Positions 34,208 through 63,183 of a stretch of 64,000 bases of DNA are shown here, in pieces. Both the position numbers and the translations under genes were made by a program. Where the stretch lies: positions 1,302,001 through 1,366,000 of the forward strand of contig NW_027117340.1 in assembly GCF_038025025.1 (NCBI RefSeq), in the 5' to 3' direction. The notes below the pieces were generated by a model. That model was not told the origin of the DNA. It was given only the letters and a program-made list of their open reading frames with translations, and ran no database searches. Every line of letters starts with the position of its first letter. The first letter of the stretch is position 1. The DNA comes from Phyllosticta citribraziliensis. Its lineage: Eukaryota.

Positions 34208-37200
34208 ATGTCTCACGAAGAGACCGCCCAAGCGCTCGTCGCTGTCCTCTCCAACCTCGCAAAGCAATATGATCCCGCAGGAGACAGGTCGTTTCCCGGC
34301 CAAGTCGCCGCCAACGGTGGCAGGTCATCCACCGTGACTCTGCCCGGCCCGGACACCGAAACCAAAAAGTCGCTCGAGCGCGAAATCAACGCCCTCGCCT
34401 CGCGAATCCATTTCCTCGAAGCAAAGGCCAAGACGGTGAACAACAGCGCTTTGCCCATCACTCCCGGCGAACCCTCTCTCTACTCCCCCTTCCCAGGCGA
34501 CAGCCAACAACTGCAGGCTCCCCGAACCGGCCCCGCCAGCGGTAGGGACAGGCAGGCGTCATGGGTCACCAACTGGCTCGCATCAAAGGACACGCCCGGC
34601 GAGCGCCCGGTGCCCGCGGCGCAGCTCACCGAGGACCAGCTCAGCTATCTGCGCGACCACTTGAACAAGCAGGCCGAGCAGATTCAGAGCCAACGCGAAC
34701 ACATTGACAGCCTGAGCGCCGAGGTCACCCGGCAGCTCCGGGACCAGGACAAGGCATTTGGACACGGCATCGAGGACATTGGCGCTCTGAAGCGAGAACT
34801 GCAAAAACACCAGCAGGCCAACTTGGCTTTCCAAAAGGCGCTGCGTGAAATTGGTAGCATTGTGACTGCTGTGGCGCATGGCGACCTCAGCAAAAAGGTT
34901 CTCATTCACGCTAAGGAAATGGACCCTGAGATTACGACCTTCAAACGCACCATCAACACCATGGTCGATCAACTCCAGGATTTTGCTTCTCAAGTCACGA
35001 ATCTCGCAAAGGAAGTCGGGACCGAAGGTCGCTTGGGCGGCCAAGCCGTTCTGACTGGCGTCGACGGTATCTGGGCTGAATTAACCAACTCGGGTAGGCC
35101 CACGTGAACCCTAAAACACAACTAGCGGATGCGCTGATCAATGTTCTAGTCAACGACATGGCCCGAAACCTGACGGAACAGGTGCGAGAAATCGCTGTAG
35201 TCACAACTGCTGTCGCACACGGTGACCTTAGCCGGAAGATTGAACGACCGGCTAGGGGAGAGATACTTCAACTTCAGGAGACCATCAACACCATGGTGGA
35301 CCAACTCCGTTCATTTGCATCTGAAGTCACACGGGTCGCTCGCGACGTCGGTGTCGAAGGTATTCTTGGTGGTCAAGCGCGGATCGAAGGCGTCCAGGGC
35401 ATGTGGAACGACTTGACCATCAACGTCAACGCCATGGCCTTAAATCTCACAACCCAAGTGCGCGACATTGCTCAAGTCACAACAGCCGTCGCCCAGGGTA
35501 ATCTCACGCGCAAGGTCTCGGCAGAGTGCAAGGGCGAAATTGCAGAACTGAAAAACACCATCAACTCCATGGTTGACCAACTGCAGCAATTTGCGCACGA
35601 AGTCACAAAAATTGCTAGAGAGGTCGGTACCGAAGGTCGCCTTGGTGGCCAGGCCAGAGTCCATGGCGTCGAGGGAACCTGGAAAGACCTGACCGAAAAC
35701 GTCAACGGCATGGCCGACAATCTAACCACACAAGTGCGAGAGATTGCAGAAGTCACAACGGCGGTCGCCCGGGGAGATTTGAGCAAAAAGGTCAAAGCAG
35801 AGGTCAGGGGTGAAATCTTGGCCCTCAAGATCACAATCAACACCATGGTTGACCGCCTGAATGATTTTGCATACCAAGTCAGCAAGGTGGCTAGAGAAGT
35901 CGGTACCGATGGAAAACTTGGAGGTCAGGCAGAGGTCGAGAATGTCGAGGGCAAGTGGAAGGACCTTACGGACAACGTCAACACGATGGCGCAAAACCTC
36001 ACTCTTCAAGTGCGAAGTATATCGGACGTCACCAGCGCTCTTTCGCGTGGCGACCTGACGCGCCGCGTCCACGTTGATGCCGAGGGAGAGATACGCCTGC
36101 TCAAGGACACGATCAACGACATGGTTGCCCGACTTGACGAATGGTCTCTTGCCGTGAAACGCGTCGCCAGGGACGTCGGAGTGGACGGCAAGATGGGTGG
36201 TCAGGCCGAGGTCGAAGGCATTACCGGGCGTTGGAAAGAAATCACCACCGACGTCAATACCATGGCCCAAAATTTGACGTCTCAAGTGAGGGCCTTTGGC
36301 GACATCACTCAAGCCGCCACGGACGGAAAGTTTACCCAAATCACAGTGGAAGCTGCGGGTGAGATGGATGAGCTGAAACGCAAGATCAACAAAATGGTTT
36401 CCAGCTTAAGGGAGAGTATCCAGAGAAACACGGCGGCAAGGGAGGCTGCCGAACTTGCAAACAAGACCAAGTCCGAATTCCTGGCCAACATGTCCCACGA
36501 AATTAGGACACCGATGAACGGCATCATTGGAATGACGCAGCTCACTCTCGACACTGATCTCACTCACTCGCAGCGCGAGATGCTTACAATTGTTCACAAC
36601 CTGGCTGGCCAGCTCTTGACGATTATCGATGATATTCTCGATATTTCCAAGATCGAAGCGAACCGCATGGTTATGGAGGAAATACCATTCTCGCTACGTG
36701 GAACGATTTTCAACGCTCTCAAGTCTTTGTCTTCGCGCGCAAACGAGAGAAAGCTCAACCTGGCCTACCAGGTCGACAGCTCTGTCCCAGATTATGTCAT
36801 AGGAGACTCGTTCAGGCTGAGGCAGATCATTCTCAACCTTGTTGGCAACGCCATCAAATTCACCGAGCACGGAGAGGTCAAGGTTGCTATTTCTATGGCA
36901 CCGAACCAGGCGTGCGCGCCTGACCAGTACGTGTTCCAGTTTGCCGTCTCGGATACTGGCATTGGTATTCACGGCGACAAGCTGAACCTCATTTTCGACA
37001 CGTTCCAGCAAGCCGATGGATCAACGACCAGGAAGTTTGGCGGCACAGGTCTCGGTCTGTCCATTTCCAAGCGCCTCGTCACTCTCATGGGTGGAAGGAT
37101 GTGGGTTGAGTCTGAGTACGGCTGTGGAAGTACCTTTTACTTTACTTGCAGGGTCCGTCTCGGAAACCCCGACATCAGCGCCATTCAGCCGCAGTTGTCA

Positions 37201-38332
37201 CCATACAGCAAGCACACGGTGCTCTTCATTGATCAGGGCAAGACTGGCTATGGCGATGACATCGTCAGCCACCTCAAGGCGCTTGACCTGGTCCCGCATG
37301 TCATCCACACAGACGAGACTACGCCGCTGTCAGAAATTCCGAGCCCGAGCAAGCATGCGTACGACTGCGTCATTGTCGACTGCAACATGACGGCGCGTCG
37401 GTTGCGGGTTGAGGAGCGCTTCAAGTATATTCCTCTTGTAATGGTCACGCCTAGGGTGGCTATCAGTCTCAAGTCGGCGCTTGAGGATGGCATTTCCAGC
37501 TTCATCACGACCCCATGTCTGCCCATCGACCTGGGCAATGCCTTGATCCCGGCCCTCGACGGTCGTGCTGCACCCCTCATATCGAACCAGTCCAAGTCGT
37601 TCAACATTCTCTTGGCCGAGGATAACCAGGTCAACCAGCGCCTCGCCGTCAAGATTCTACACAAGTACAACCACAATGTCACAGTTGCCGAGAACGGTCT
37701 CGAGGCTCTCGAGAATATCAAGAAGACAAAGTATGACGTGGTATTGATGGATGTCCAGATGCCGGTCATGGGAGGATTTGAAGCGACGGCCAAGATTCGA
37801 GAGTACGAGCGTGAGCACCACCTGACGCCAACGCCGGTGATTGCGCTCACGGCGCATGCAATGGTGGGCGACCGGGAGAAGTGTCTCCAGGCGCAGATGG
37901 ACGTAAGTAAAAATGACAGACGGTTGTGCGACTTTGCTAATAGAATACAGGACTACTTGTCCAAGCCGCTGAAGCAGAACCAGCTCATTCAAACTATTCT
38001 GCGGTGCGCAACCCTGGGTGGTGCGCTGCTTGAGCAGGACCGGCAGCGGATGGCTCTCGCGCAGAGCGAAAAGGATAAGGATAAACAGGAGAAGCAGAAT
38101 CAGAGGGGAGGCAACCGGGGGTCTCAGAATACATCAGGAGGTACGCGCAGGCCACAGATTGATGCAAGAGGCTACACCGAGACGACTGTTGCGGGTTCGC
38201 AGAGCCCCAAGCTGCTGGCGGCAGATCAGCAGGACCAAGCAGACCGAGTAAGTTGCCTTTACCACAAGGTCTAATTAGACTCGTTGCGCTGACATCACCC
38301 CGCAGCTCTTGCTTCGATCGCACAGCAGCTGA
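34208..38332 (+). CDS. NIK1: Group III two-component hybrid histidine kinase (Nik1/Os-1), 1320 aa
   Basis: Exons 34208-35093, 35150-37902, 37951-38247, 38306-38332 (3963 nt). Five full HAMP-linker repeats (xG.LGGQA...G.W) plus a truncated sixth, H-box [18 protein letters not shown] boxes (NAIKFT, DTGIG, GGTGLGL), receiver LLAEDN...VLMDVQMP...SKP. Confidence 0.96.
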
Positions 38333-57168: not shown

Positions 57169-58977
57169 TCAATAATCCGGAAAGTCTGGATCAACGTCCT
57201 TCCGCCAAGCTTTGAAGCCACCCCGAATATCGACTATGGCCCTTGAGCCTCCTTTGTCTAAACCCAAGGCCTTCATTTTCTTGACAGCAATTTGTGAATC
57301 GTTCCCCAGCCGACAAGTGACGATGATGGGCTGATCTGATGGTGTCTGCTGCAGCTGCTTCACCCAATCCGGCTGTGTTTCTTCCTGGGCAGACGGCGTA
57401 CTCGCTGACGATTCTGGTGTGACTGGCGTATTGGCCGCCGAAGGAGCTTGCACATTCAACCTCTCGATATCAGAGAAGGGTATGTTGATGCTACCATCCA
57501 AGTGCGCCAATTCAAATTGTATTTTGTCGCGGACGTCGACCAGGACATGTCCGTTTGATTCCGAGTTGGCAGCTTGGTGGTATTCCCGAGCCGAGATGCG
57601 CTCATCTGGGGACAGAGCGTTGACTGGACTGGAGGCACCGCAAAACTGAACATAATCCATAGATCCAGAGCTGAGAGCTTCTCGGGTGACGGTGGCCTCA
57701 GCAGAGCATGCTGCACACCGCGGCTTCCGAGAGCGAAGGCCGAAAGATCGAAACTGTGGGTTTCCGTATGCAGAGAATATCAACAGAGATGCTTTATTCG
57801 GTTTTTTTGGGGCAGAATTGGAGCCGTTCGGCGTGGGCCTATCAATGTCCATTGGGGTGTCTGCAGGAGGGCCCTGCGAACTCTCTATACCAGCTGCAAT
57901 CAGCTTGATGGCCTCGAGAGCTTGCAGCACGCCCATGACTCCCACCACAGGACCTAGAACTCCACCCTCACCACAGCTGACGACGCTTTCAGCGGGCGGC
58001 GGTCTAGGAAAGATGCAGCGGTAGCATGGACCTCCCATGAGATCTCCAGGTGGAAGGGGCGGGTTGTTGAAGATTGTGAGCTGACCATCTGTCCGCAACG
58101 CCGATGCAGATACAAGAGGCTTGCCGAGCAAGACGCAAGTGTCAGAAATGAGATATCGAGAAGCTGGCGTGTCGGTACAGTCGAGCACCAGGTCGTAGTT
58201 GGAGAAGATGCCAATGGCGTTAGACGGAGCAAGTTGTGTTTTGTGAGGATTGTATTTGACCGTTGGGTTGAGGCTAGCCAAGGTGAGCGGCATTTCAGAA
58301 TGGACAAGATATGTATACCTACGTCTTGAGGTACATCATGGCGCTGTCCACTTTGGACATGCCCACTCGGCTTGTCGCGTGGAGAATCTGGCGATGCAGA
58401 TTAGATTCCTCGACAGAGTCTCCGTCCACAAGACCGAGAGTGCCTATTCCAGCTCCTGCGAGGTATGCTGCAGCTGGACAGCCTAGACCTCCCATGCCGA
58501 CAATCAAAACTGCGGTGTCGCGAAGGCGGCGCTGTCCTGTAAATCGAGGATTAGACATGGCTTTCAAGCAGCGACCATGAACGGTAAGAAGCGCGCTTGG
58601 CTACCTTGAAGTCCAATTTCCGGCATGATCAACTGGCGGCCATATCTCTTGTAGTCGTCGGCGTTCAAAGGCCATTTCTTTTTCTGTGGCTGCGGTTGTT
58701 CCAGTACTGCTGACAGCTCGGCCTGCCACTCCGCGGGCAATCCTCCGTCTATTGCGAAATTCAAGAATGTAGAGTCCTGTCCGTCCGAGAGTAAAGTCGA
58801 GGGAAAATAACTGGGCTGCGACGAGTTCTCCAGCACTGGCGACTGGGTTGCGGCGGCGGTTTTGGCTGCGCGGGCTTCGGCATTGGCGAGTTTTTGGCGC
58901 AGGTGGACGAGCTGGCGTTCGCAAGAAGAAATCTCATGCCGGATGGAGGCGATGGTCGCCTCGACTGGACCGTCCAT
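57169..58977 (-). CDS. UBA4: Adenylyltransferase/sulfurtransferase Uba4/MOCS3/CnxF, 563 aa
   Basis: Exons 58977-58605, 58536-58323, 58273-57169 (1692 nt). [37 protein letters not shown], and rhodanese CRLGND...VDPDFPDY. Confidence 0.94.
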
Positions 58978-59509
58978 GTCGCAAAAATTCTGCAAGGGCA
59001 GCGCGCCGGCGAGGAGGGACGAGAGGGTTGGGGAGTACAACCAAGAGTGGAATGGAAATGCGCACGCGCTGCGCCGGCCCCGCGCGTCCTACCCTGGTCC
59101 TGGCGCCCTTATCGATAGCTCATATTTGCCTGAGGCTCTGAGGGACCAAACCGGGTTAGCATGACATCATGACATCAAATTCCTCCGGCTACCTAGATCC
59201 AACCCTTCTCTCGAATTAGATGGCATTTATATTCCACTCGAGTCCTATGAGATGCTACGAGCCTTCTCTCGTTAGTGTCTTCTTTCATCTTTCTTCCCAA
59301 CTTCCATTCAAGGCATGCTCTCATCAAATTTCACGAACAGACGGTCATCTCTATTTGCCGTTGAATAGTCTTGTCTGATTTCTCTGCAAGGTCTAATGCT
59401 TGACAATCCCGTGTACGCTTGATTCCACTTTTTGATACCCGCATCTTTTTGCATCCAGCTCGACTCAATCATTTATCCTCATCTAGTTAAGGCTCTGAGA
59501 GAGCGCCAT

Positions 59510-61068
59510 TTATACCCGCCAGCGGTCGACGACCTCAAAGAGCGTATCTGCGCTCCCGACGTTGCCAGGAAATACGACGTACGGCAAGCCCGGATACTTG
59601 CATGTCTCCTCATCGCAGCGCCAAAGCGGCACGCCCGGGGCAGCCTGGCCAACAATAGTAGCCTTCTTCATGTTCAAGCCCTTTGTGGCCATGTCCGACG
59701 ACGTGATGCCGCCCTGTTATTTGATCAGCCTCCACCATAGCAAACTCTGTCCAAGATACAAGGCTTGACCTACCTTGGCGATGACATATCTCGGCCTGAT
59801 CTTGACTTGCTGCATGAACTTGACCAGCGCATCTGCGACTACAGAGCCAATGTCCAGGCTTTTCTTCGCATCGTCTCCAGTGATCAGTTTGCGGCTCGTC
59901 ATGACAAGCACGTCTTGTCTGTGCGCAATTTCGCGCTCCGCCGTGGCGAGCGCTCCAGCAATAGCTTCGCCAGCACTTTCTGGAGATGCCAGGAGTTTTT
60001 CAACGTCGAGTTCCACCGTGGCCAACTTCTTGCCGCTCTTCGAGACCAAAGCTTCCAACTGCGCCGTCGTCTTGGGCACGTATGACCCGGCAATGATGAG
60101 ACCGCCTGCTTCCCGGGAGAGATGAAGTTGCTCGGCCGTAATGGGAGGGATTGGAGAGATTCCCAGGCGAGCCGAGACGAATGCTGCCGCGGTTCGGAAC
60201 AGGAAGCGCTTTCCTTTAGCTGTGGACGCATTAGCAGACCGTTCGGAGCATTCCGTGCCCGGTCCTCGGGCGACTGACCTGCGGCTGCGAGCAGCCCCAA
60301 CACCACGACGTCCATGTCCTCCTCTGCGGCCGCATTCACGACGACCACTGAGCCCTTGGGGAAATTGTTCAGCAACTCCTCAACTCGCGCCGGGCCGCCG
60401 ACTCTAATATCCTCCAAGCCCAGGCCTACCACCCTATCCTTCTTAATTACGCCCTTGCTCTTCTCCTCAACCCAGTCTTTCAGATCACTGCTCTTATACC
60501 CAAACGTGGCGTCTTTGGCAAACGGCGTCTCTCCCGCCGGAAGCAGAGTTTCCCCTTCAGCAACATAGTGCACGTCGCCGATGGTGTAGCGGCCGCCCTG
60601 CAAGAAGAACGGCGCAAGCACCCACGCGTCGGCCTCCCCCAGCACCTCCTCGACGACATCACACTCGTCAGGAAAGTGGCCCCTGAGCGTCGAATCGCCG
60701 CGCAAGACGACCTCAAACGGTTTACCCGTGGCGTCGCTCGCCGCCTTGAGATTCAGGCAAATCTCGGTCACGAGCGAGCGCGCGTCCTCAGCGTGCAAGG
60801 CGCGCGAGTTTGTGAGGATGAAGAATCCAGAGCCCGCTCGCGTGGCAGCAAACTCGGCCCTGAGAGTCGGCACGTCCCAGACGGTCAGCACGGGTATGTC
60901 GTGGCAGGTCTGGGTGCCGGTAGGGTCGTCATCGAGGGCGATGAGCAGCGGGATGGAGGCGGCGTTGGAGGAGAGGAACTGGCGCGTCTGCGCGCGCAGA
61001 TCGCCTGGATGCGCCCGCGGGAGGGCAGCGAGGGTCTCGTGGAGGGGCAGGGACTTGGGGAAAGACAT
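59510..61068 (-). CDS. Four-carbon acid sugar kinase family protein (DUF1537/OtnK-like), stand-alone, 479 aa
   Basis: Exons 61068-60279, 60219-59774, 59713-59510 (1440 nt). LDDDPTGTQT, LTNSR, RGDSTLRGH, GGRYT, FAKDATFGY, AGSYVPKTTAQL, IAKGGITSSD, GQAAPGVP and VVFPGNVG motifs. Confidence 0.9.
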
Positions 61069-61694
61069 TGTGGGCGAGGGAAGGGTAGATCTGGGGAAAG
61101 CTTGGGATCATGGCCGACAAGGGACGTTTGCACCAGTTTATAAGGATGGACTGGGATTTGCGTTGAGCGCTAACATGGGCTGGAGAGGGTCCTCCGAAGC
61201 CAATGCTCACATGCCGGCCGACGACGAAGCCTGCTCAACGCCGCAAGCCGGATTGCTGCTGTCTCGTGAGCTTGAATTGGACATCTGGCGATGGTGGAGT
61301 AGGGCAATTGGCGCGGGGAACGTCAGAGTAGGTGGAGCTGCTGGTGACATAAGACAGGGCGGACAGAAGCGCGCGGTGGGCCGGGAAGATGGCCGACGTC
61401 GCCTTGTCATCGTGCCGGTGGTGGAGTTGACGTCGAAGCTCCCCGCACCACCAACCTCATTCCCCGACGCTGCCCCGCAATGGCCGACGACGATTTGATG
61501 CTTCTGGCGCGGGATAACATTTCCTGTCAGCCGGCATGCAGCAACTGCGACTGCGCTCTCTCCAACGGATGAATTGAACTTGACGACTTCTCTTTAAGCT
61601 CTCCACTTCCTTTGCATTGGCGGAACTGAGCTCACCTGCCTTCAAACGCGTCCCAGCAACCAACCCCAGCAGACCAGCCATCCTCACAGCGAAA
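61069..61694. promoter_or_regulatory. Bidirectional promoter with ten SYGGRG (CreA/Cre1 consensus) matches and a TATA-like element
   Basis: SYGGRG on either strand at 61091, 61180, 61294, 61313, 61332, 61421, 61441, 61473, 61601 and 61664. TATAAA on the - strand about 70 bp upstream of the kinase ATG. Confidence 0.45.
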
Positions 61695-62675
61695 ATGACG
61701 GCCACGCAGCACGTTCTCATCACCGGCGCCTCTGGCTTCATCGGCCGCGAGCTCACGCTGGCCCTCCTCGCCGCCTCGCCCAGCTACCACCTCACGCTCA
61801 GCGACATTGCGCCGCCCAGCATCCCGCCAGCAGCCGACGCCTCGCGCATCACAACCAAGCAGACGGACCTGACATCAACGGCCTCCATCACGGCGCTCGT
61901 CGAATCGCAGGCGCACTGGCACGCCGTCTACACCCTCCACGGCATCATGTCGTCGGGCAGCGAAGCCAACCTGGAGCTGGGCTACAGCGTCAACCTCGAC
62001 TCGCACCGGGCGCTGTACGACGCGCTGCGCAAGCACCAGCACGGCGCCGTCGTCGTCTTCACCTCGTCGACAGCCGTATACGGCCCGCCCGAGACGGCCG
62101 GGCCCTCTCGCGTCTTCACCGAGGCCACGCTGCCGCAGCCGCAGGGCAGCTACGGCACGCAAAAGTTCATGACCGAGTGCTTGCTCAACGACTACTCGCG
62201 CCGCGGCCTGCTCGACGCCCGCTGCGTGCGCCTGCCCACCGTTGTCGTGCGGCCCGGCGCGCCCACCGCCGCTGCCAGCAGCTTCGCCTCGGGCATTGTC
62301 CGTGAGCCCATGCAGGGCCAGCGCAGCGTGCTGCCCGTCAACAAGGACCTGGTGATGTGGGTGTGCTCGCCACGCACCGTCGTGCGCAACCTGCTGGCTG
62401 TCAAGGACGTCGCGAGCGAGCGGTTTGGGCTTAGTCGCGTGGTCAACTTGCCCGGGCTGTCGGTGACGGTGGCTGAGATCTTGGACGCGCTCGAGGCGGT
62501 TGGCGGCAAGGAGAAGAGGGCACTGGTCGATGAGCAGAGAGACGAAGCGGTCGAGAAGCTGGTACTAAGTTGGCCCGAAAGGCTGGATACCAAGAGGGCG
62601 CTGGACCTGGGTCTCAGCCCGGATGTCCCGCTTCAGGAGACAGTTCAGGCGTTTGCTGATAGCCTGAAGCAGTAG
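61695..62675 (+). CDS. Extended SDR, NAD-dependent epimerase/dehydratase family; D-erythronate dehydrogenase (DenD)-like, 326 aa, intronless
   Basis: ITGASGFIG Rossmann motif, FTSSTAVYG, catalytic YGTQK, plus DenD-type blocks LNDYSRRG.LDAR.VRLPT..VRPG.P.AAASSFASGIVREP, VNLPG.SVTV.E and SWP. Confidence 0.85.
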   Translation: MTATQHVLITGASGFIGRELTLALLAASPSYHLTLSDIAPPSIPPAADASRITTKQTDLTSTASITALVESQAHWHAVYTLHGIMSSGSEANLELGYSVNLDSHRALYDALRKHQHGAVVVFTSSTAVYGPPETAGPSRVFTEATLPQPQGSYGTQKFMTECLLNDYSRRGLLDARCVRLPTVVVRPGAPTAAASSFASGIVREPMQGQRSVLPVNKDLVMWVCSPRTVVRNLLAVKDVASERFGLSRVVNLPGLSVTVAEILDALEAVGGKEKRALVDEQRDEAVEKLVLSWPERLDTKRALDLGLSPDVPLQETVQAFADSLKQ

Positions 62676-63183
62676 CGTGTTGCTTTTTGGCTGCTGTGAG
62701 TAGTGATCTGATAGTAGCGTCATCTAGTCATAAGGCAACTTACATCAACAACTTTGGCCTTGGTGACACGTGCTTGCCGCTCATCTTATCCCTGCGGAAA
62801 TAAGTAGCCAGGCGTGTCGTGCGTCAAACTGTTGGGAATGACAAAAGCCGTTCAAGCGTTTAGCCAGGGTGAACATACTTTGCTTTTGAAAAAAGCGCAT
62901 CGCCAAAGCGCGAGATCGGTCATCCAATGCGAGCTTGTTATGAACCACGTTCATTCAGTATCGAAAACTACAGGCCGTGATCTGTAGGATGCCAAAGACC
63001 AAAAGGAGAAAGCAGCCGTCGGGCGACTTACGGCAGACAAGGAGAAGCAGCCCACGCGATTGGCCATGCAAGATATCATGTTCTAACCAATCAGCCACGC
63101 AAACCCATGACCAAAATGCAACGTCAACCAAGCCGTTCAATCATTCCAACAAAAACCAAAGCACACACAGACCTGCGTCCCCC

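What the first reader, a model, noticed from the sequence alone, without database searches (positions are those of the whole stretch)
59510..62675. Head-to-head DUF1537 acid-sugar kinase and DenD-like dehydrogenase: candidate fungal tetronate (erythronate/threonate) catabolic module
Seen: a DUF1537-family kinase (-) and an extended SDR carrying DenD-type blocks (+) are divergently transcribed from a 626-bp shared region. Established: in bacteria, DenD oxidises D-erythronate to 2-oxo-tetronate, OtnI isomerises it to 3-oxo-tetronate, the DUF1537 kinase OtnK phosphorylates it, and OtnC decarboxylates it to DHAP; these genes are operonic. Inference: two members of that pathway adjacent in a fungus suggest a co-regulated mini-cluster for four-carbon acid sugars, for example breakdown products of (erythro)ascorbate or sugars. 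I know of no characterised fungal version. OtnI and OtnC equivalents are not in this window.
Basis: partly seen in the sequence, partly recalled or inferred. Interest (0 to 1): 0.78.

Follow-up and report, generated by a model that had tools for sequence, protein, structure and literature searches.

The report
Fungal erythronate dehydrogenase and kinase pair
Two neighbouring, expressed fungal genes probably start the breakdown of a four-carbon sugar acid by a short route known from bacteria and plants, but the enzyme for the last step is not nearby and is unknown.

Summary
A three-exon DUF1537 kinase gene (-, 59510-61068) and a single-exon extended-SDR gene (+, 61695-62675) lie head to head, 626 bp apart. 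Contigs from four runs (two on record as RNA) splice both kinase introns exactly and cover both genes.

The SDR just passes NCBI's curated D-erythronate dehydrogenase (DenD) model: 327.3 bits against a cut-off of 325.

The kinase is not OtnK. It scores 31 bits against a cut-off of 350. It belongs to a eukaryote-wide clade (support 100/100) with the kinase domain of the plant L-threonate protein LTD. Its relatives are fused to LtnD-type dehydrogenases and class II F_bP_aldolase domains.

The better model is therefore the three-step route: dehydrogenase, 2-oxo-tetronate kinase, 2-OtnC. That route needs no OtnI.

No 2-OtnC-type gene lies in the window or beside 64 related metagenome loci. The whole genome is not held, so the last step stays open.

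Gene tags or accessions are consecutive in four Botryosphaeriales species and 2-4 apart in seven further fungi, mostly Pleosporales. Only 1 of 64 metagenome loci has the SDR nearby; 17 of 64 carry an LtnD-type dehydrogenase instead.

I found no characterised fungal version in print. This scan noted a similar fungal cluster before, on other DNA. Verdict: first reading partly supported; a new variant of a known kind; moderate interest.

The parts
60279..61068 (-). Kinase exon 1 (start codon at 61068-61066): N-terminal extension plus sugar-binding domain
   Evidence: Pfam SBD_N, E 1.1e-50. 100% identical to P0121 over this exon. Covered by spliced contigs.
60220..60278 (-). Kinase intron 1 (59 nt, GT..AG)
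   Evidence: Read. Skipped by contigs in 4 of 4 runs (table 5).
59774..60219 (-). Kinase exon 2: end of the sugar-binding domain and first part of the nucleotide-binding domain
   Evidence: Pfam NBD_C profile positions 1-115, E 2.9e-18.
59714..59773 (-). Kinase intron 2 (60 nt, GT..AG)
   Evidence: Read. Skipped by contigs in 4 of 4 runs (table 5, with the cut moved by 1).
59510..59713 (-). Kinase exon 3 with stop codon: end of the nucleotide-binding domain
   Evidence: Pfam NBD_C profile positions 116-168, E 8.4e-17.
61069..61694 (.). 626-bp region between the two start codons. Most of it is transcribed as two long 5' leaders. It carries 3-4 copies of the motif (ATG)GCCGACG(A/T)CG.
   Evidence: The kinase contig reaches 61412 and the SDR contigs start at 61402-61478. 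GGCCGACGWCG occurs 3 times in the 64-kb window, all three here, against 0.10 expected. ATGGCCGAC occurs 4 times in the window, 3 of them here, against 0.50 expected.
61695..62675 (+). DenD-like extended SDR (326 aa plus stop), single exon
   Evidence: NF043036 ErythonDh 327.3 bits, cut-off 325. PF01370. Best solved relative 2hrz_A, E 1.5e-56. GASGFIG and YGTQK motifs read in the translation. Covered by contigs in 4 of 4 runs.

Best explanation
The two genes encode the first two steps of a fungal version of the three-step tetronate route.

Step 1 (inferred from family membership): the DenD-like SDR oxidises D-erythronate, or a very close four-carbon acid sugar, at C2 with NAD+ to give 2-oxo-tetronate.

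Step 2 (inferred from clade and fusion partners): the DUF1537 kinase is an orthologue of the kinase domain of the plant L-threonate protein LTD and a relative of bacterial 2-oxo-tetronate kinases. It phosphorylates that product at C4 with ATP, with no prior isomerisation by OtnI.

Step 3 (open): 2-oxo-tetronate 4-phosphate is converted to a triose phosphate plus CO2 by an enzyme encoded elsewhere. In bacteria and plants that enzyme is a class II F_bP_aldolase-family protein (2-OtnC).

Within fungi the kinase lineage started as an LtnD-kinase fusion. In the stand-alone sub-clade to which this gene belongs, some lineages placed a non-homologous dehydrogenase (DenD-type) next to it. That fits a change of substrate stereochemistry with the same downstream chemistry.

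Shown here: gene structure, transcription and splicing, family and clade placement, and linkage in relatives. Inferred: substrates, products and physiological role.
For: Gene models and transcription: both kinase introns are spliced exactly and both genes are covered in 4 of 4 runs from 3 studies. Two of the runs are plant-metagenome RNA-seq of a relative whose contigs are 90-95% alike.

SDR: NF043036 ErythonDh scores 327.3 against a cut-off of 325, with the next family (GalE) at 50 bits. Four fungal orthologues score 310.6-349.2. A bacterial DenD next to a related kinase scores 457.3.

Kinase placement: in a careful IQ-TREE of 59 rows, the 26 eukaryotic rows form one side of a branch (support 100/100), the 21 fungal rows likewise (99/96), and the 13 stand-alone fungal rows including the window likewise (100/96).

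Fusion partners: 22 multi-domain relatives were picked by length from the best 150 of 3224 hits. Of these, 12 carry LtnD-type NAD_binding_2 or NAD_binding_11 domains, 11 carry F_bP_aldolase, and 17 carry one or both. None carries Epimerase, Aldolase_II or AP_endonuc_2. They include Fusarium, Gonapodya, Mesostigma, Tetraselmis, a lycophyte and a haptophyte.

Linkage: locus tags or accessions of SDR and kinase are consecutive in Neofusicoccum ribis, Botryosphaeria dothidea, Lasiodiplodia theobromae (three assemblies plus RefSeq) and L. hormozganensis. They are offset by 2-4 in Paraconiothyrium, Didymosphaeria, Paraphaeosphaeria, Zopfia, Diplodia corticola, Corynespora and Lophiotrema.

In other fungal lineages the same kinase family sits directly behind an LtnD-type dehydrogenase in 17 of 64 metagenome loci. 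Two unrelated tetronate-2-dehydrogenase families are thus linked to it.

A bacterial locus (L091) has the same head-to-head DenD | kinase layout, followed by a class II aldolase and preceded by a GntP-type acid-sugar transporter.

The three-step route and the plant LTD protein are described in PMC12540250 and PMC12994016 (passages read).
Against: The SDR passes the DenD cut-off by only 2.3 bits, and one fungal orthologue (Mycena) falls below it at 310.6.

I could not obtain the sequence of the characterised Arthrobacter 2-OtnK, so '2-OtnK-like' rests on clade, fusions and context only.

No F_bP_aldolase, Aldolase_II or AP_endonuc_2 gene lies in the 64-kb window or in any of the 64 related metagenome loci. 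The route as encoded here is incomplete, and the whole genome is not held.

A DenD-like gene lies near the kinase in only 1 of 64 metagenome loci and 1 of 80 bacterial loci. Only 17 of the 80 bacterial relatives have DenD, LtnD or an FBA-type gene nearby by my probes. The clade therefore probably includes kinases for other acid sugars; fusions to cyclase (2), SASA esterase (1) and aldo-keto reductase (1) point the same way.

Contigs show presence, not co-regulation.
Confidence: 0.6

Rival explanations
1. Same kind of module but another substrate. The SDR and kinase would act on a different small acid sugar, for example L- or D-threonate, D-apionate or a pentonate from plant cell walls, so the label 'D-erythronate' would be wrong.
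For: The SDR sits at the very edge of the DenD model: 327.3 against 325, with fungal orthologues at 310.6-349.2 and a bacterial DenD at 457.3. By my probes, 63 of 80 bacterial relatives of the kinase lack DenD, LtnD and FBA-type neighbours. Relatives are also fused to cyclase, SASA esterase and aldo-keto reductase domains. The abstract start of PMC13753588, as listed, says the apiose-pathway enzyme ApnO also uses D-erythronate and D-ribonate. That shows overlap between these pathways.
Against: The best family match by far is DenD, and it covers the full length of both profile and protein (residues 6-322 on profile positions 2-318 of 321). The kinase's own eukaryotic clade is tied by fusion to LtnD, whose product is also 2-oxo-tetronate.
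Confidence: 0.2
2. DenD would make 2-oxo-tetronate, an unlinked OtnI would isomerise it, this kinase would act as a 3-oxo-tetronate kinase (OtnK), and an unlinked class II aldolase-fold OtnC would decarboxylate the product.
For: The DenD assignment holds. The whole genome could not be searched, so unlinked OtnI and OtnC genes cannot be excluded.
Against: The kinase scores 30.9 bits on NF043035 OxoTetrKin against a cut-off of 350. E. coli YgbK found no match in the window or in any fungal locus by tblastn at 1e-6. YgbK sits on a branch of about 10 substitutions per site in the tree. None of the 22 fused relatives carries Aldolase_II or AP_endonuc_2. E. coli OtnI and OtnC probes hit 0 of 64 fungal loci. 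The authors of PMC12540250 report no OtnI homologue in Arabidopsis, whose LTD kinase domain is in the same clade.
Confidence: 0.07
3. The two genes are neighbours by descent in one fungal order but work in unrelated processes. The shared spacer would be only a compact bidirectional arrangement among housekeeping genes.
For: All other genes identified in the window are housekeeping types: 14-3-3, Nsp1, CDC20, SNF2/RING helicase, hybrid histidine kinase, ThiF/rhodanese. Adjacency is absent in 63 of 64 metagenome loci. The downstream ThiF/rhodanese neighbour is also syntenic in Neofusicoccum parvum, where a gene model merges it with the kinase (P0126). Plain synteny therefore explains part of the conservation.
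Against: The same two families are paired head to head in a bacterium (L091). The kinase family is independently tied to a second, unrelated tetronate dehydrogenase family (17 of 64 loci; 12 of 22 fusions). Linkage persists with 1-3 intervening genes in seven further fungi, mostly Pleosporales. Both genes are covered in the same 4 of 4 runs.
Confidence: 0.08

Closest known systems
Three-step L-threonate / D-erythronate pathway of bacteria: Ltn2D or D-erythronate 2-dehydrogenase, then 2-oxo-tetronate kinase (2-OtnK), then 2-OtnC. Source: Guo et al. 2024, BBRC. That paper is not held, so I know it only as cited and summarised in PMC12540250 and PMC12994016.
   Same: A C2 dehydrogenase of the DenD family stands next to a DUF1537 kinase whose relatives are adjacent or fused to LtnD and F_bP_aldolase-family proteins. 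No OtnI is involved.
   Different: This is a eukaryote with intron-bearing, divergently transcribed genes rather than an operon. No 2-OtnC-type gene lies in the window or in 64 related metagenome loci. The characterised bacterial enzymes were not compared directly.
Arabidopsis LTD (AT1G18270), a single protein with two LtnD domains, a 2-OtnK-like domain and a 2-OtnC-like domain (PMC12540250, passages read)
   Same: The window's kinase falls in the same strongly supported eukaryotic clade as land-plant and algal LTD-type kinase domains (100/100). UniRef names the fungal kinases after this plant protein.
   Different: The fungal kinase stands alone. The dehydrogenase beside it is a non-homologous extended SDR (DenD-type) instead of a beta-hydroxyacid dehydrogenase. 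The aldolase-family domain is missing in every fungal relative I examined, which include Fusarium and Gonapodya (both LtnD-kinase only).
Four-step pathway DenD/LtnD-OtnI-OtnK-OtnC. Zhang et al. 2016 PNAS is recalled and seen only as cited, not read. The E. coli ygbJKLM annotation was seen.
   Same: It shares DenD as the entry enzyme and a DUF1537 kinase.
   Different: The kinase is far from OtnK (30.9 bits against 350). No OtnI or Aldolase_II OtnC was found in the window or in related fungal loci.
Chryseolinea sp. locus L091 (uncharacterised): GntP transporter <- DenD <-|-> DUF1537 kinase -> class II FBP aldolase
   Same: It has the same head-to-head DenD | kinase layout. Its DenD is 42.5% identical to the window's SDR and its kinase 44% identical to the window's kinase.
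   Different: It is bacterial. Its aldolase is the genome's only PF01116 match and scores as a housekeeping-type class II FBA (544 bits on PRK09197). In the tree, its kinase is not the closest bacterial relative of the fungal clade.

Membership tests
DenD, D-erythronate 2-dehydrogenase (NCBIfam NF043036 ErythonDh, equivalog) | Whole-protein score at or above the curated cut-off (325 bits) with full-length coverage | tested here: met
   327.3 bits; residues 6-322 match profile positions 2-318 of 321. The margin is small. Fungal orthologues score 310.6-349.2 and a bacterial member 457.3.
DenD, D-erythronate 2-dehydrogenase | Extended-SDR fold with a Gly-rich dinucleotide motif and a catalytic Tyr-x3-Lys | tested here: met
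   PF01370, E 1.2e-22. GASGFIG and YGTQK are read in the translation and aligned to 2hrz_A. That these motifs define the fold is general SDR knowledge, recalled.
DenD, D-erythronate 2-dehydrogenase | NAD+-dependent oxidation of D-erythronate to 2-oxo-tetronate | not testable with these tools
   This needs an enzyme assay.
OtnK, 3-oxo-tetronate kinase (NCBIfam NF043035) | Score at or above 350 bits | tested here: not met
   30.9 bits for the full-length protein P0121.
OtnK, 3-oxo-tetronate kinase | Genomic association with OtnI (AP_endonuc_2) and OtnC (Aldolase_II) | tested here: not met
   Neither family appears in the window's Pfam scan of 150 of the 165 ORFs of 126 aa or more. Of the 15 left out, 10 lie in the finding's region and 5 are short. 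E. coli OtnI and OtnC probes hit 0 of 64 fungal loci and not the window. The rest of the genome could not be tested.
DtnK / DenK plus PdxA2 route | Score at or above 450 bits on the DtnK model NF047819, and a PdxA2 neighbour | tested here: not met
   57.4 bits. No PdxA-family hit in the window scan.
2-OtnK / LTD-type kinase clade of DUF1537 | Two-domain DUF1537 architecture (SBD_N plus NBD_C) with the conserved DDDPTG and GGITS/FPGNVG motifs | tested here: met
   Pfam. Invariant columns D46-G51, K412-G414, T416 and F460-G465 in a 20-sequence alignment.
2-OtnK / LTD-type kinase clade of DUF1537 | Phylogenetic placement with kinases that are fused or adjacent to LtnD and F_bP_aldolase-type 2-OtnC | tested here: met
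   Eukaryotic clade 100/100 and fungal clade 99/96. Fusions in 17 of 22 multi-domain relatives.
2-OtnK / LTD-type kinase clade of DUF1537 | Similarity to the biochemically characterised Arthrobacter 2-OtnK, and activity on 2-oxo-tetronate | not tested
   No tool gave me that sequence and the paper is not held. Activity needs an assay.
Complete three-step tetronate pathway | Presence of a 2-OtnC (F_bP_aldolase-family) gene | tested here: inconclusive
   None in the window or in 64 related loci. The whole genome is not held. A search with an algal 2-OtnC-type domain listed no fungal name among the best 120 of 4495 hits, which does not show absence.

The most novel reading that the evidence does not exclude
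Fungi run a tetronate route whose last step differs from every described one. All fungal relatives I examined lack the 2-OtnC domain that plants and algae keep fused to this kinase. Fungi may therefore dispose of 2-oxo-tetronate 4-phosphate in one of two ways. Their housekeeping class II fructose-bisphosphate aldolase could moonlight for the step; the Chryseolinea locus, where the genome's only class II aldolase follows the kinase, hints at this. Alternatively a non-homologous enzyme could act, for example a thiamine-dependent 2-oxo-acid decarboxylase, which would yield glyceraldehyde 3-phosphate directly instead of DHAP. The swap of LtnD for DenD would then fit the D-configured product.
Probability: 0.25. 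Interest if true: 0.65.

Novelty: new variant of a known kind. Interest (0 to 1): 0.45.

Why it matters
Four-carbon acid sugars arise from ascorbate and sugar oxidation and are abundant in plant tissue. Their catabolism was worked out in bacteria only in 2016-2024 and touched in plants in 2025. In the papers my searches listed I found nothing on fungi.

This pair gives a concrete two-gene handle, transcribed (two of the runs are plant-associated RNA-seq), for testing whether plant-associated fungi use D-erythronate. It also exposes a defined gap, the missing third enzyme, that could lead to new chemistry.

It further corrects a likely annotation trap: these fungal kinases are named 'ketose-bisphosphate aldolase' or 'oxidoreductase YgbJ' in public records.

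Tried and rejected
1. Whole-genome search for OtnK, OtnC and OtnI: no genome is held for this window.

2. Solved structures for the kinase: phmmer of P0121 against PDB sequences gave 0 hits at E 0.001. This shows divergence, not absence of the fold.

3. Reading the 798-aa Neofusicoccum parvum 'YgbJ' protein as an LtnD fusion: rejected. Its extra part matches MoeB/ThiF, so the gene model merges the kinase with its neighbour.

4. Looking for a fungal stand-alone 2-OtnC with the aldolase domain of P0250: the best 120 of 4495 hits carry plant, algal, bacterial or no names, and none is fungal. This is inconclusive, because only the top of the list is seen.

5. Surveying DenD contexts in bacteria: NF043036 was found in 1 of 301 genomes of L091's phylum, in 0 of 4 genomes holding related kinases, and in 2 of 401 genomes of L144's phylum. 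The two loci fetched had no kinase, aldolase, OtnI or OtnC within reach of my probes. The survey therefore says nothing on which kinase type DenD usually accompanies.

6. A class IIa aldolase probe from L091 against the window and all loci: no fungal hit.

7. Earlier notes of this scan, searched by place ('aldolase') and by the SDR sequence: nothing.

8. Depth in the laid runs was not used to rank expression, because all four runs are contigs.

9. Guo et al. 2024 could not be read.
Full report
**What is there**

Reading the minus strand of 59400-61250 gives a three-exon gene:
- start codon at 61068-61066;
- exon 1 down to 60279;
- a 59-nt GT..AG intron (60278-60220);
- exon 2, 60219-59774;
- a 60-nt GT..AG intron (59773-59714);
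- exon 3, 59713-59510, stop codon included.

The spliced product has 479 residues. It is letter for letter the database protein P0121, which its source names as a Phyllosticta citribraziliensis protein. Pfam finds the two DUF1537 domains: SBD_N in exon 1 (E 1.1e-50) and NBD_C split across exons 2 and 3.

On the plus strand, 61695-62675 is a single-exon gene for a 326-residue extended SDR (PF01370, E 1.2e-22).

**Transcription**

Contigs of four public runs from three studies were laid on 59400-62800. X6 and X7 are on record as RNA. X1 and X2 are only guessed to be RNA, but their contigs are spliced.
- All four runs skip exactly the two predicted introns.
- All four cover both genes.
- X6 and X7 are plant-metagenome RNA-seq of a close relative whose contigs are 90-95% alike.
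- The kinase contig of run X1 runs up to 61412.
- The SDR contigs start at 61402 (X2), 61456 (X1) and 61478 (X6, X7).

The two transcribed regions thus meet or overlap in the middle of the spacer, which consists mostly of two long leaders. Contigs cannot fix true ends or rank expression.

**The dehydrogenase**

Against NCBIfam the SDR scores 327.3 bits on the equivalog model NF043036, 'D-erythronate dehydrogenase' (cut-off 325). The match covers the full length of profile and protein. The next family, GalE, scores 50 bits.

The margin is thin:
- four fungal orthologues score 310.6 (Mycena, below the cut-off), 328.5, 333.5 and 349.2;
- a bacterial DenD next to a related kinase scores 457.3.

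The best solved relative is 2hrz_A (E 1.5e-56), deposited only as a 'nucleoside-diphosphate-sugar epimerase'. The Gly-rich motif GASGFIG and the Tyr-x3-Lys motif YGTQK are present.

I call the protein DenD-like. It is a marginal but formal member of the family.

**The kinase**

The full-length protein fails every curated kinase model:

| Model | Score (bits) | Cut-off (bits) |
|---|---|---|
| DtnK (D-threonate kinase) | 57.4 | 450 |
| OtnK (3-oxo-tetronate kinase) | 30.9 | 350 |
| OiaK (3-oxo-isoapionate kinase) | 30.1 | 700 |

It finds no PDB sequence at E 0.001.

A HMMER search of 1.84 billion cluster representatives gave 3224 hits. Among the best 150, I picked by length 22 proteins with extra domains and scanned them with Pfam:
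- 12 carry LtnD-type NAD_binding_2 or NAD_binding_11 domains;
- 11 carry a class II F_bP_aldolase domain;
- 17 carry one or both;
- none carries Epimerase, Aldolase_II or AP_endonuc_2;
- the other five are one aldo-keto-reductase fusion, two cyclase fusions, one SASA-esterase fusion and one with no extra domain.

Ten of these were looked up by name:

| Organism (as named by the source) | Architecture |
|---|---|
| Fusarium tricinctum | two LtnD + kinase |
| Gonapodya prolifera | LtnD + kinase |
| Mesostigma | kinase + aldolase |
| Tetraselmis | LtnD + kinase + aldolase |
| a haptophyte | LtnD + kinase + aldolase |
| a lycophyte | full plant architecture |

A careful IQ-TREE of 59 rows was built (483 columns, E. 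coli YgbK as outgroup, with quick versions):
- all 26 eukaryotic rows lie on one side of a branch (support 100/100);
- the 21 fungal rows likewise (99/96);
- the 13 stand-alone fungal kinases, including the window's, likewise (100/96);
- the LtnD-fused Gonapodya and Fusarium branch below the stand-alone clade.

Eight metagenome rows are labelled 'fungal' from their neighbours, which include Zn-cluster and fungal transcription-factor domains and other eukaryotic housekeeping genes. No source names them. One stramenopile kinase-aldolase protein fell among bacterial rows and was left out of the eukaryotic group. An unchecked note of this scan (e1-013589) says that the K-12 YgbK used as outgroup is shortened by a one-base deletion.

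**What the literature says**

Passages of PMC12540250 describe the Arabidopsis protein LTD. It has two LtnD domains, a kinase domain closer to Arthrobacter 2-OtnK (32% identity) than to E. coli 3-OtnK (18.5%), and an F_bP_aldolase-type 2-OtnC domain. The authors report no OtnI homologue in the plant.

[quoted passage not shown] This then goes to DHAP either by the four-step route (OtnI, 3OtnK, 3OtnC) or by the three-step route (2OtnK, 2OtnC).

The primary paper for the three-step route (Guo et al. 2024) is not held. Zhang et al. 2016 I know from recall and from these citations only.

On this basis the window's kinase is best read as a 2-oxo-tetronate-kinase-type enzyme.

**Linkage in other genomes**

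Source names and accessions show consecutive SDR and kinase genes in:
- Neofusicoccum ribis (SLS56_007698/007697);
- Botryosphaeria dothidea (SLS57_005107/005108);
- Lasiodiplodia theobromae (three assemblies and RefSeq);
- L. hormozganensis (g8393/g8394).

Offsets of 2-4 are seen in:
- Paraconiothyrium, Didymosphaeria and Paraphaeosphaeria (tags differ by 2);
- Zopfia (accessions differ by 2);
- Diplodia corticola (3);
- Corynespora and Lophiotrema (4).

Accession order is only a proxy for position. Xylariaceae sp. FL0662B has the two proteins on contigs of different length, so they are unlinked there.

By contrast, the 64 metagenome loci that encode relatives of the kinase (38-72% identical) gave these tblastn results at 1e-6:

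| Probe | Loci with a hit (of 64) |
|---|---|
| DenD-like gene | 1 (L035) |
| LtnD-type sequence directly upstream, same strand | 17 |
| F_bP_aldolase domain | 0 |
| E. coli OtnC | 0 |
| E. coli OtnI | 0 |

Only 25 of the 64 loci have at least 3 kb on both sides of the kinase.

Of 80 bacterial loci (40-54% identical), 1 has DenD, 8 have LtnD and 10 have an FBA-type gene nearby.

The single bacterial DenD case, Chryseolinea sp. L091, mirrors the window. A GntP-family transporter and DenD (457 bits) lie on one strand. Divergently, the kinase is followed by a class II aldolase. That aldolase is the only PF01116 match in its genome.

**Reading**

The same kinase lineage is tied to two unrelated tetronate 2-dehydrogenase families: LtnD by fusion and adjacency, DenD by adjacency. 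Both make 2-oxo-tetronate. This is the strongest argument that the window's pair is functional and acts on a four-carbon acid sugar.

The most likely mechanism:
1. D-erythronate is oxidised at C2 by the SDR.
2. The kinase phosphorylates C4 of the 2-oxo acid.
3. An unlinked enzyme converts the product to triose phosphate and CO2.

Substrates and products are inferred, not shown.

The main weaknesses:
- the SDR's marginal score;
- the diversity of contexts among bacterial relatives of the kinase;
- the missing third enzyme.

On the third enzyme, the window has no candidate. I scanned 150 of its 165 ORFs of 126 aa or more with Pfam and ran local probes. The genome is not held. A search with an algal 2-OtnC-type domain listed no fungal name among its best 120 hits, which does not show absence.

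**Novelty**

I ran three full-text searches and looked only at the listings:
- 'DUF1537': 32 papers, 30 listed;
- '2-oxo-tetronate' with 'threonate': 7 papers;
- 'erythronate', 'fungal', 'dehydrogenase', 'kinase': 21 papers, 15 listed.

By title and abstract start, none describes a fungal tetronate pathway.

This scan has noted a similar 'conserved fungal four-carbon acid-sugar gene cluster' on other DNA, with the last step likewise unknown (e1-7639624). That is an unchecked AI note. It agrees with my reading and is not independent evidence.

I rate the finding a new variant of a known kind: a eukaryotic, split and re-partnered version of the three-step route that lacks its known third enzyme. 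Interest is moderate.

Noticed in passing
window 61110-61118, 61216-61226, 61389-61401, 61480-61492: A short motif, (ATG)GCCGACG(A/T)CG, is repeated 3-4 times on the plus strand and, in its 11-nt form, occurs only in the 626-bp spacer. GGCCGACGWCG is found 3 times in 64 kb against 0.10 expected. ATGGCCGAC is found 4 times, 3 of them here, against 0.50 expected. Two copies flank the place where the two transcribed regions meet. It could be a regulatory element or the starts of small upstream reading frames.
   Followed up: partly
L091 5401-10562 (Chryseolinea sp. genome contig): Layout: GntP-type transporter and DenD (457 bits) on one strand, and divergently a related DUF1537 kinase followed by a class II FBP aldolase. 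That aldolase is the only PF01116 match in the genome. Either the housekeeping aldolase sits there by chance, or it doubles as the pathway's last enzyme.
   Followed up: partly
P0126 (Neofusicoccum parvum, 798 aa); window 57169-59088 (-): The public gene model named 'oxidoreductase YgbJ' merges the kinase with a MoeB/ThiF-like part. In the window a ThiF plus rhodanese gene is the kinase's downstream neighbour. This looks like a merged annotation and shows conserved synteny.
   Followed up: partly
P0243 and its cluster; L022; L035 8889-12408: In one fungal lineage the kinase is fused to a C-terminal aldo-keto reductase (828 aa; cluster of 34 members). In L035 this fusion is followed by a DenD-like gene and preceded by flavocytochrome-b2-like, DHDPS-family, aldo-keto-reductase and BNR_2 genes. 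Aldo-keto reductases also lie near LtnD-kinase genes in L015, L017 and L019.
   Followed up: no
one search hit list (P0003, P0004, P0007, P0012, P0013, P0016-P0018): After Phyllosticta, the nearest named relatives of the SDR are from Basidiomycota: Auriculariales sp. at 81-82% and Mycena species at 64-68%. They rank level with or above Botryosphaeriaceae and above Pleosporales (57-59%). No Mycena or Auriculariales kinase appears among the best 120 kinase hits. This suggests transfer between fungi or mislabelled records.
   Followed up: no
P0278 (Chrysoparadoxa australica, kinase plus aldolase): This stramenopile fusion protein groups with bacterial Anaerolineaceae kinases, not with the eukaryotic clade, in all three trees.
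   Followed up: no
window 35098-38271 (+): A long hybrid histidine kinase with repeated HAMP domains, HisKA, HATPase_c and a receiver domain. It is an ordinary fungal osmosensing-type kinase by domain content.
   Followed up: no
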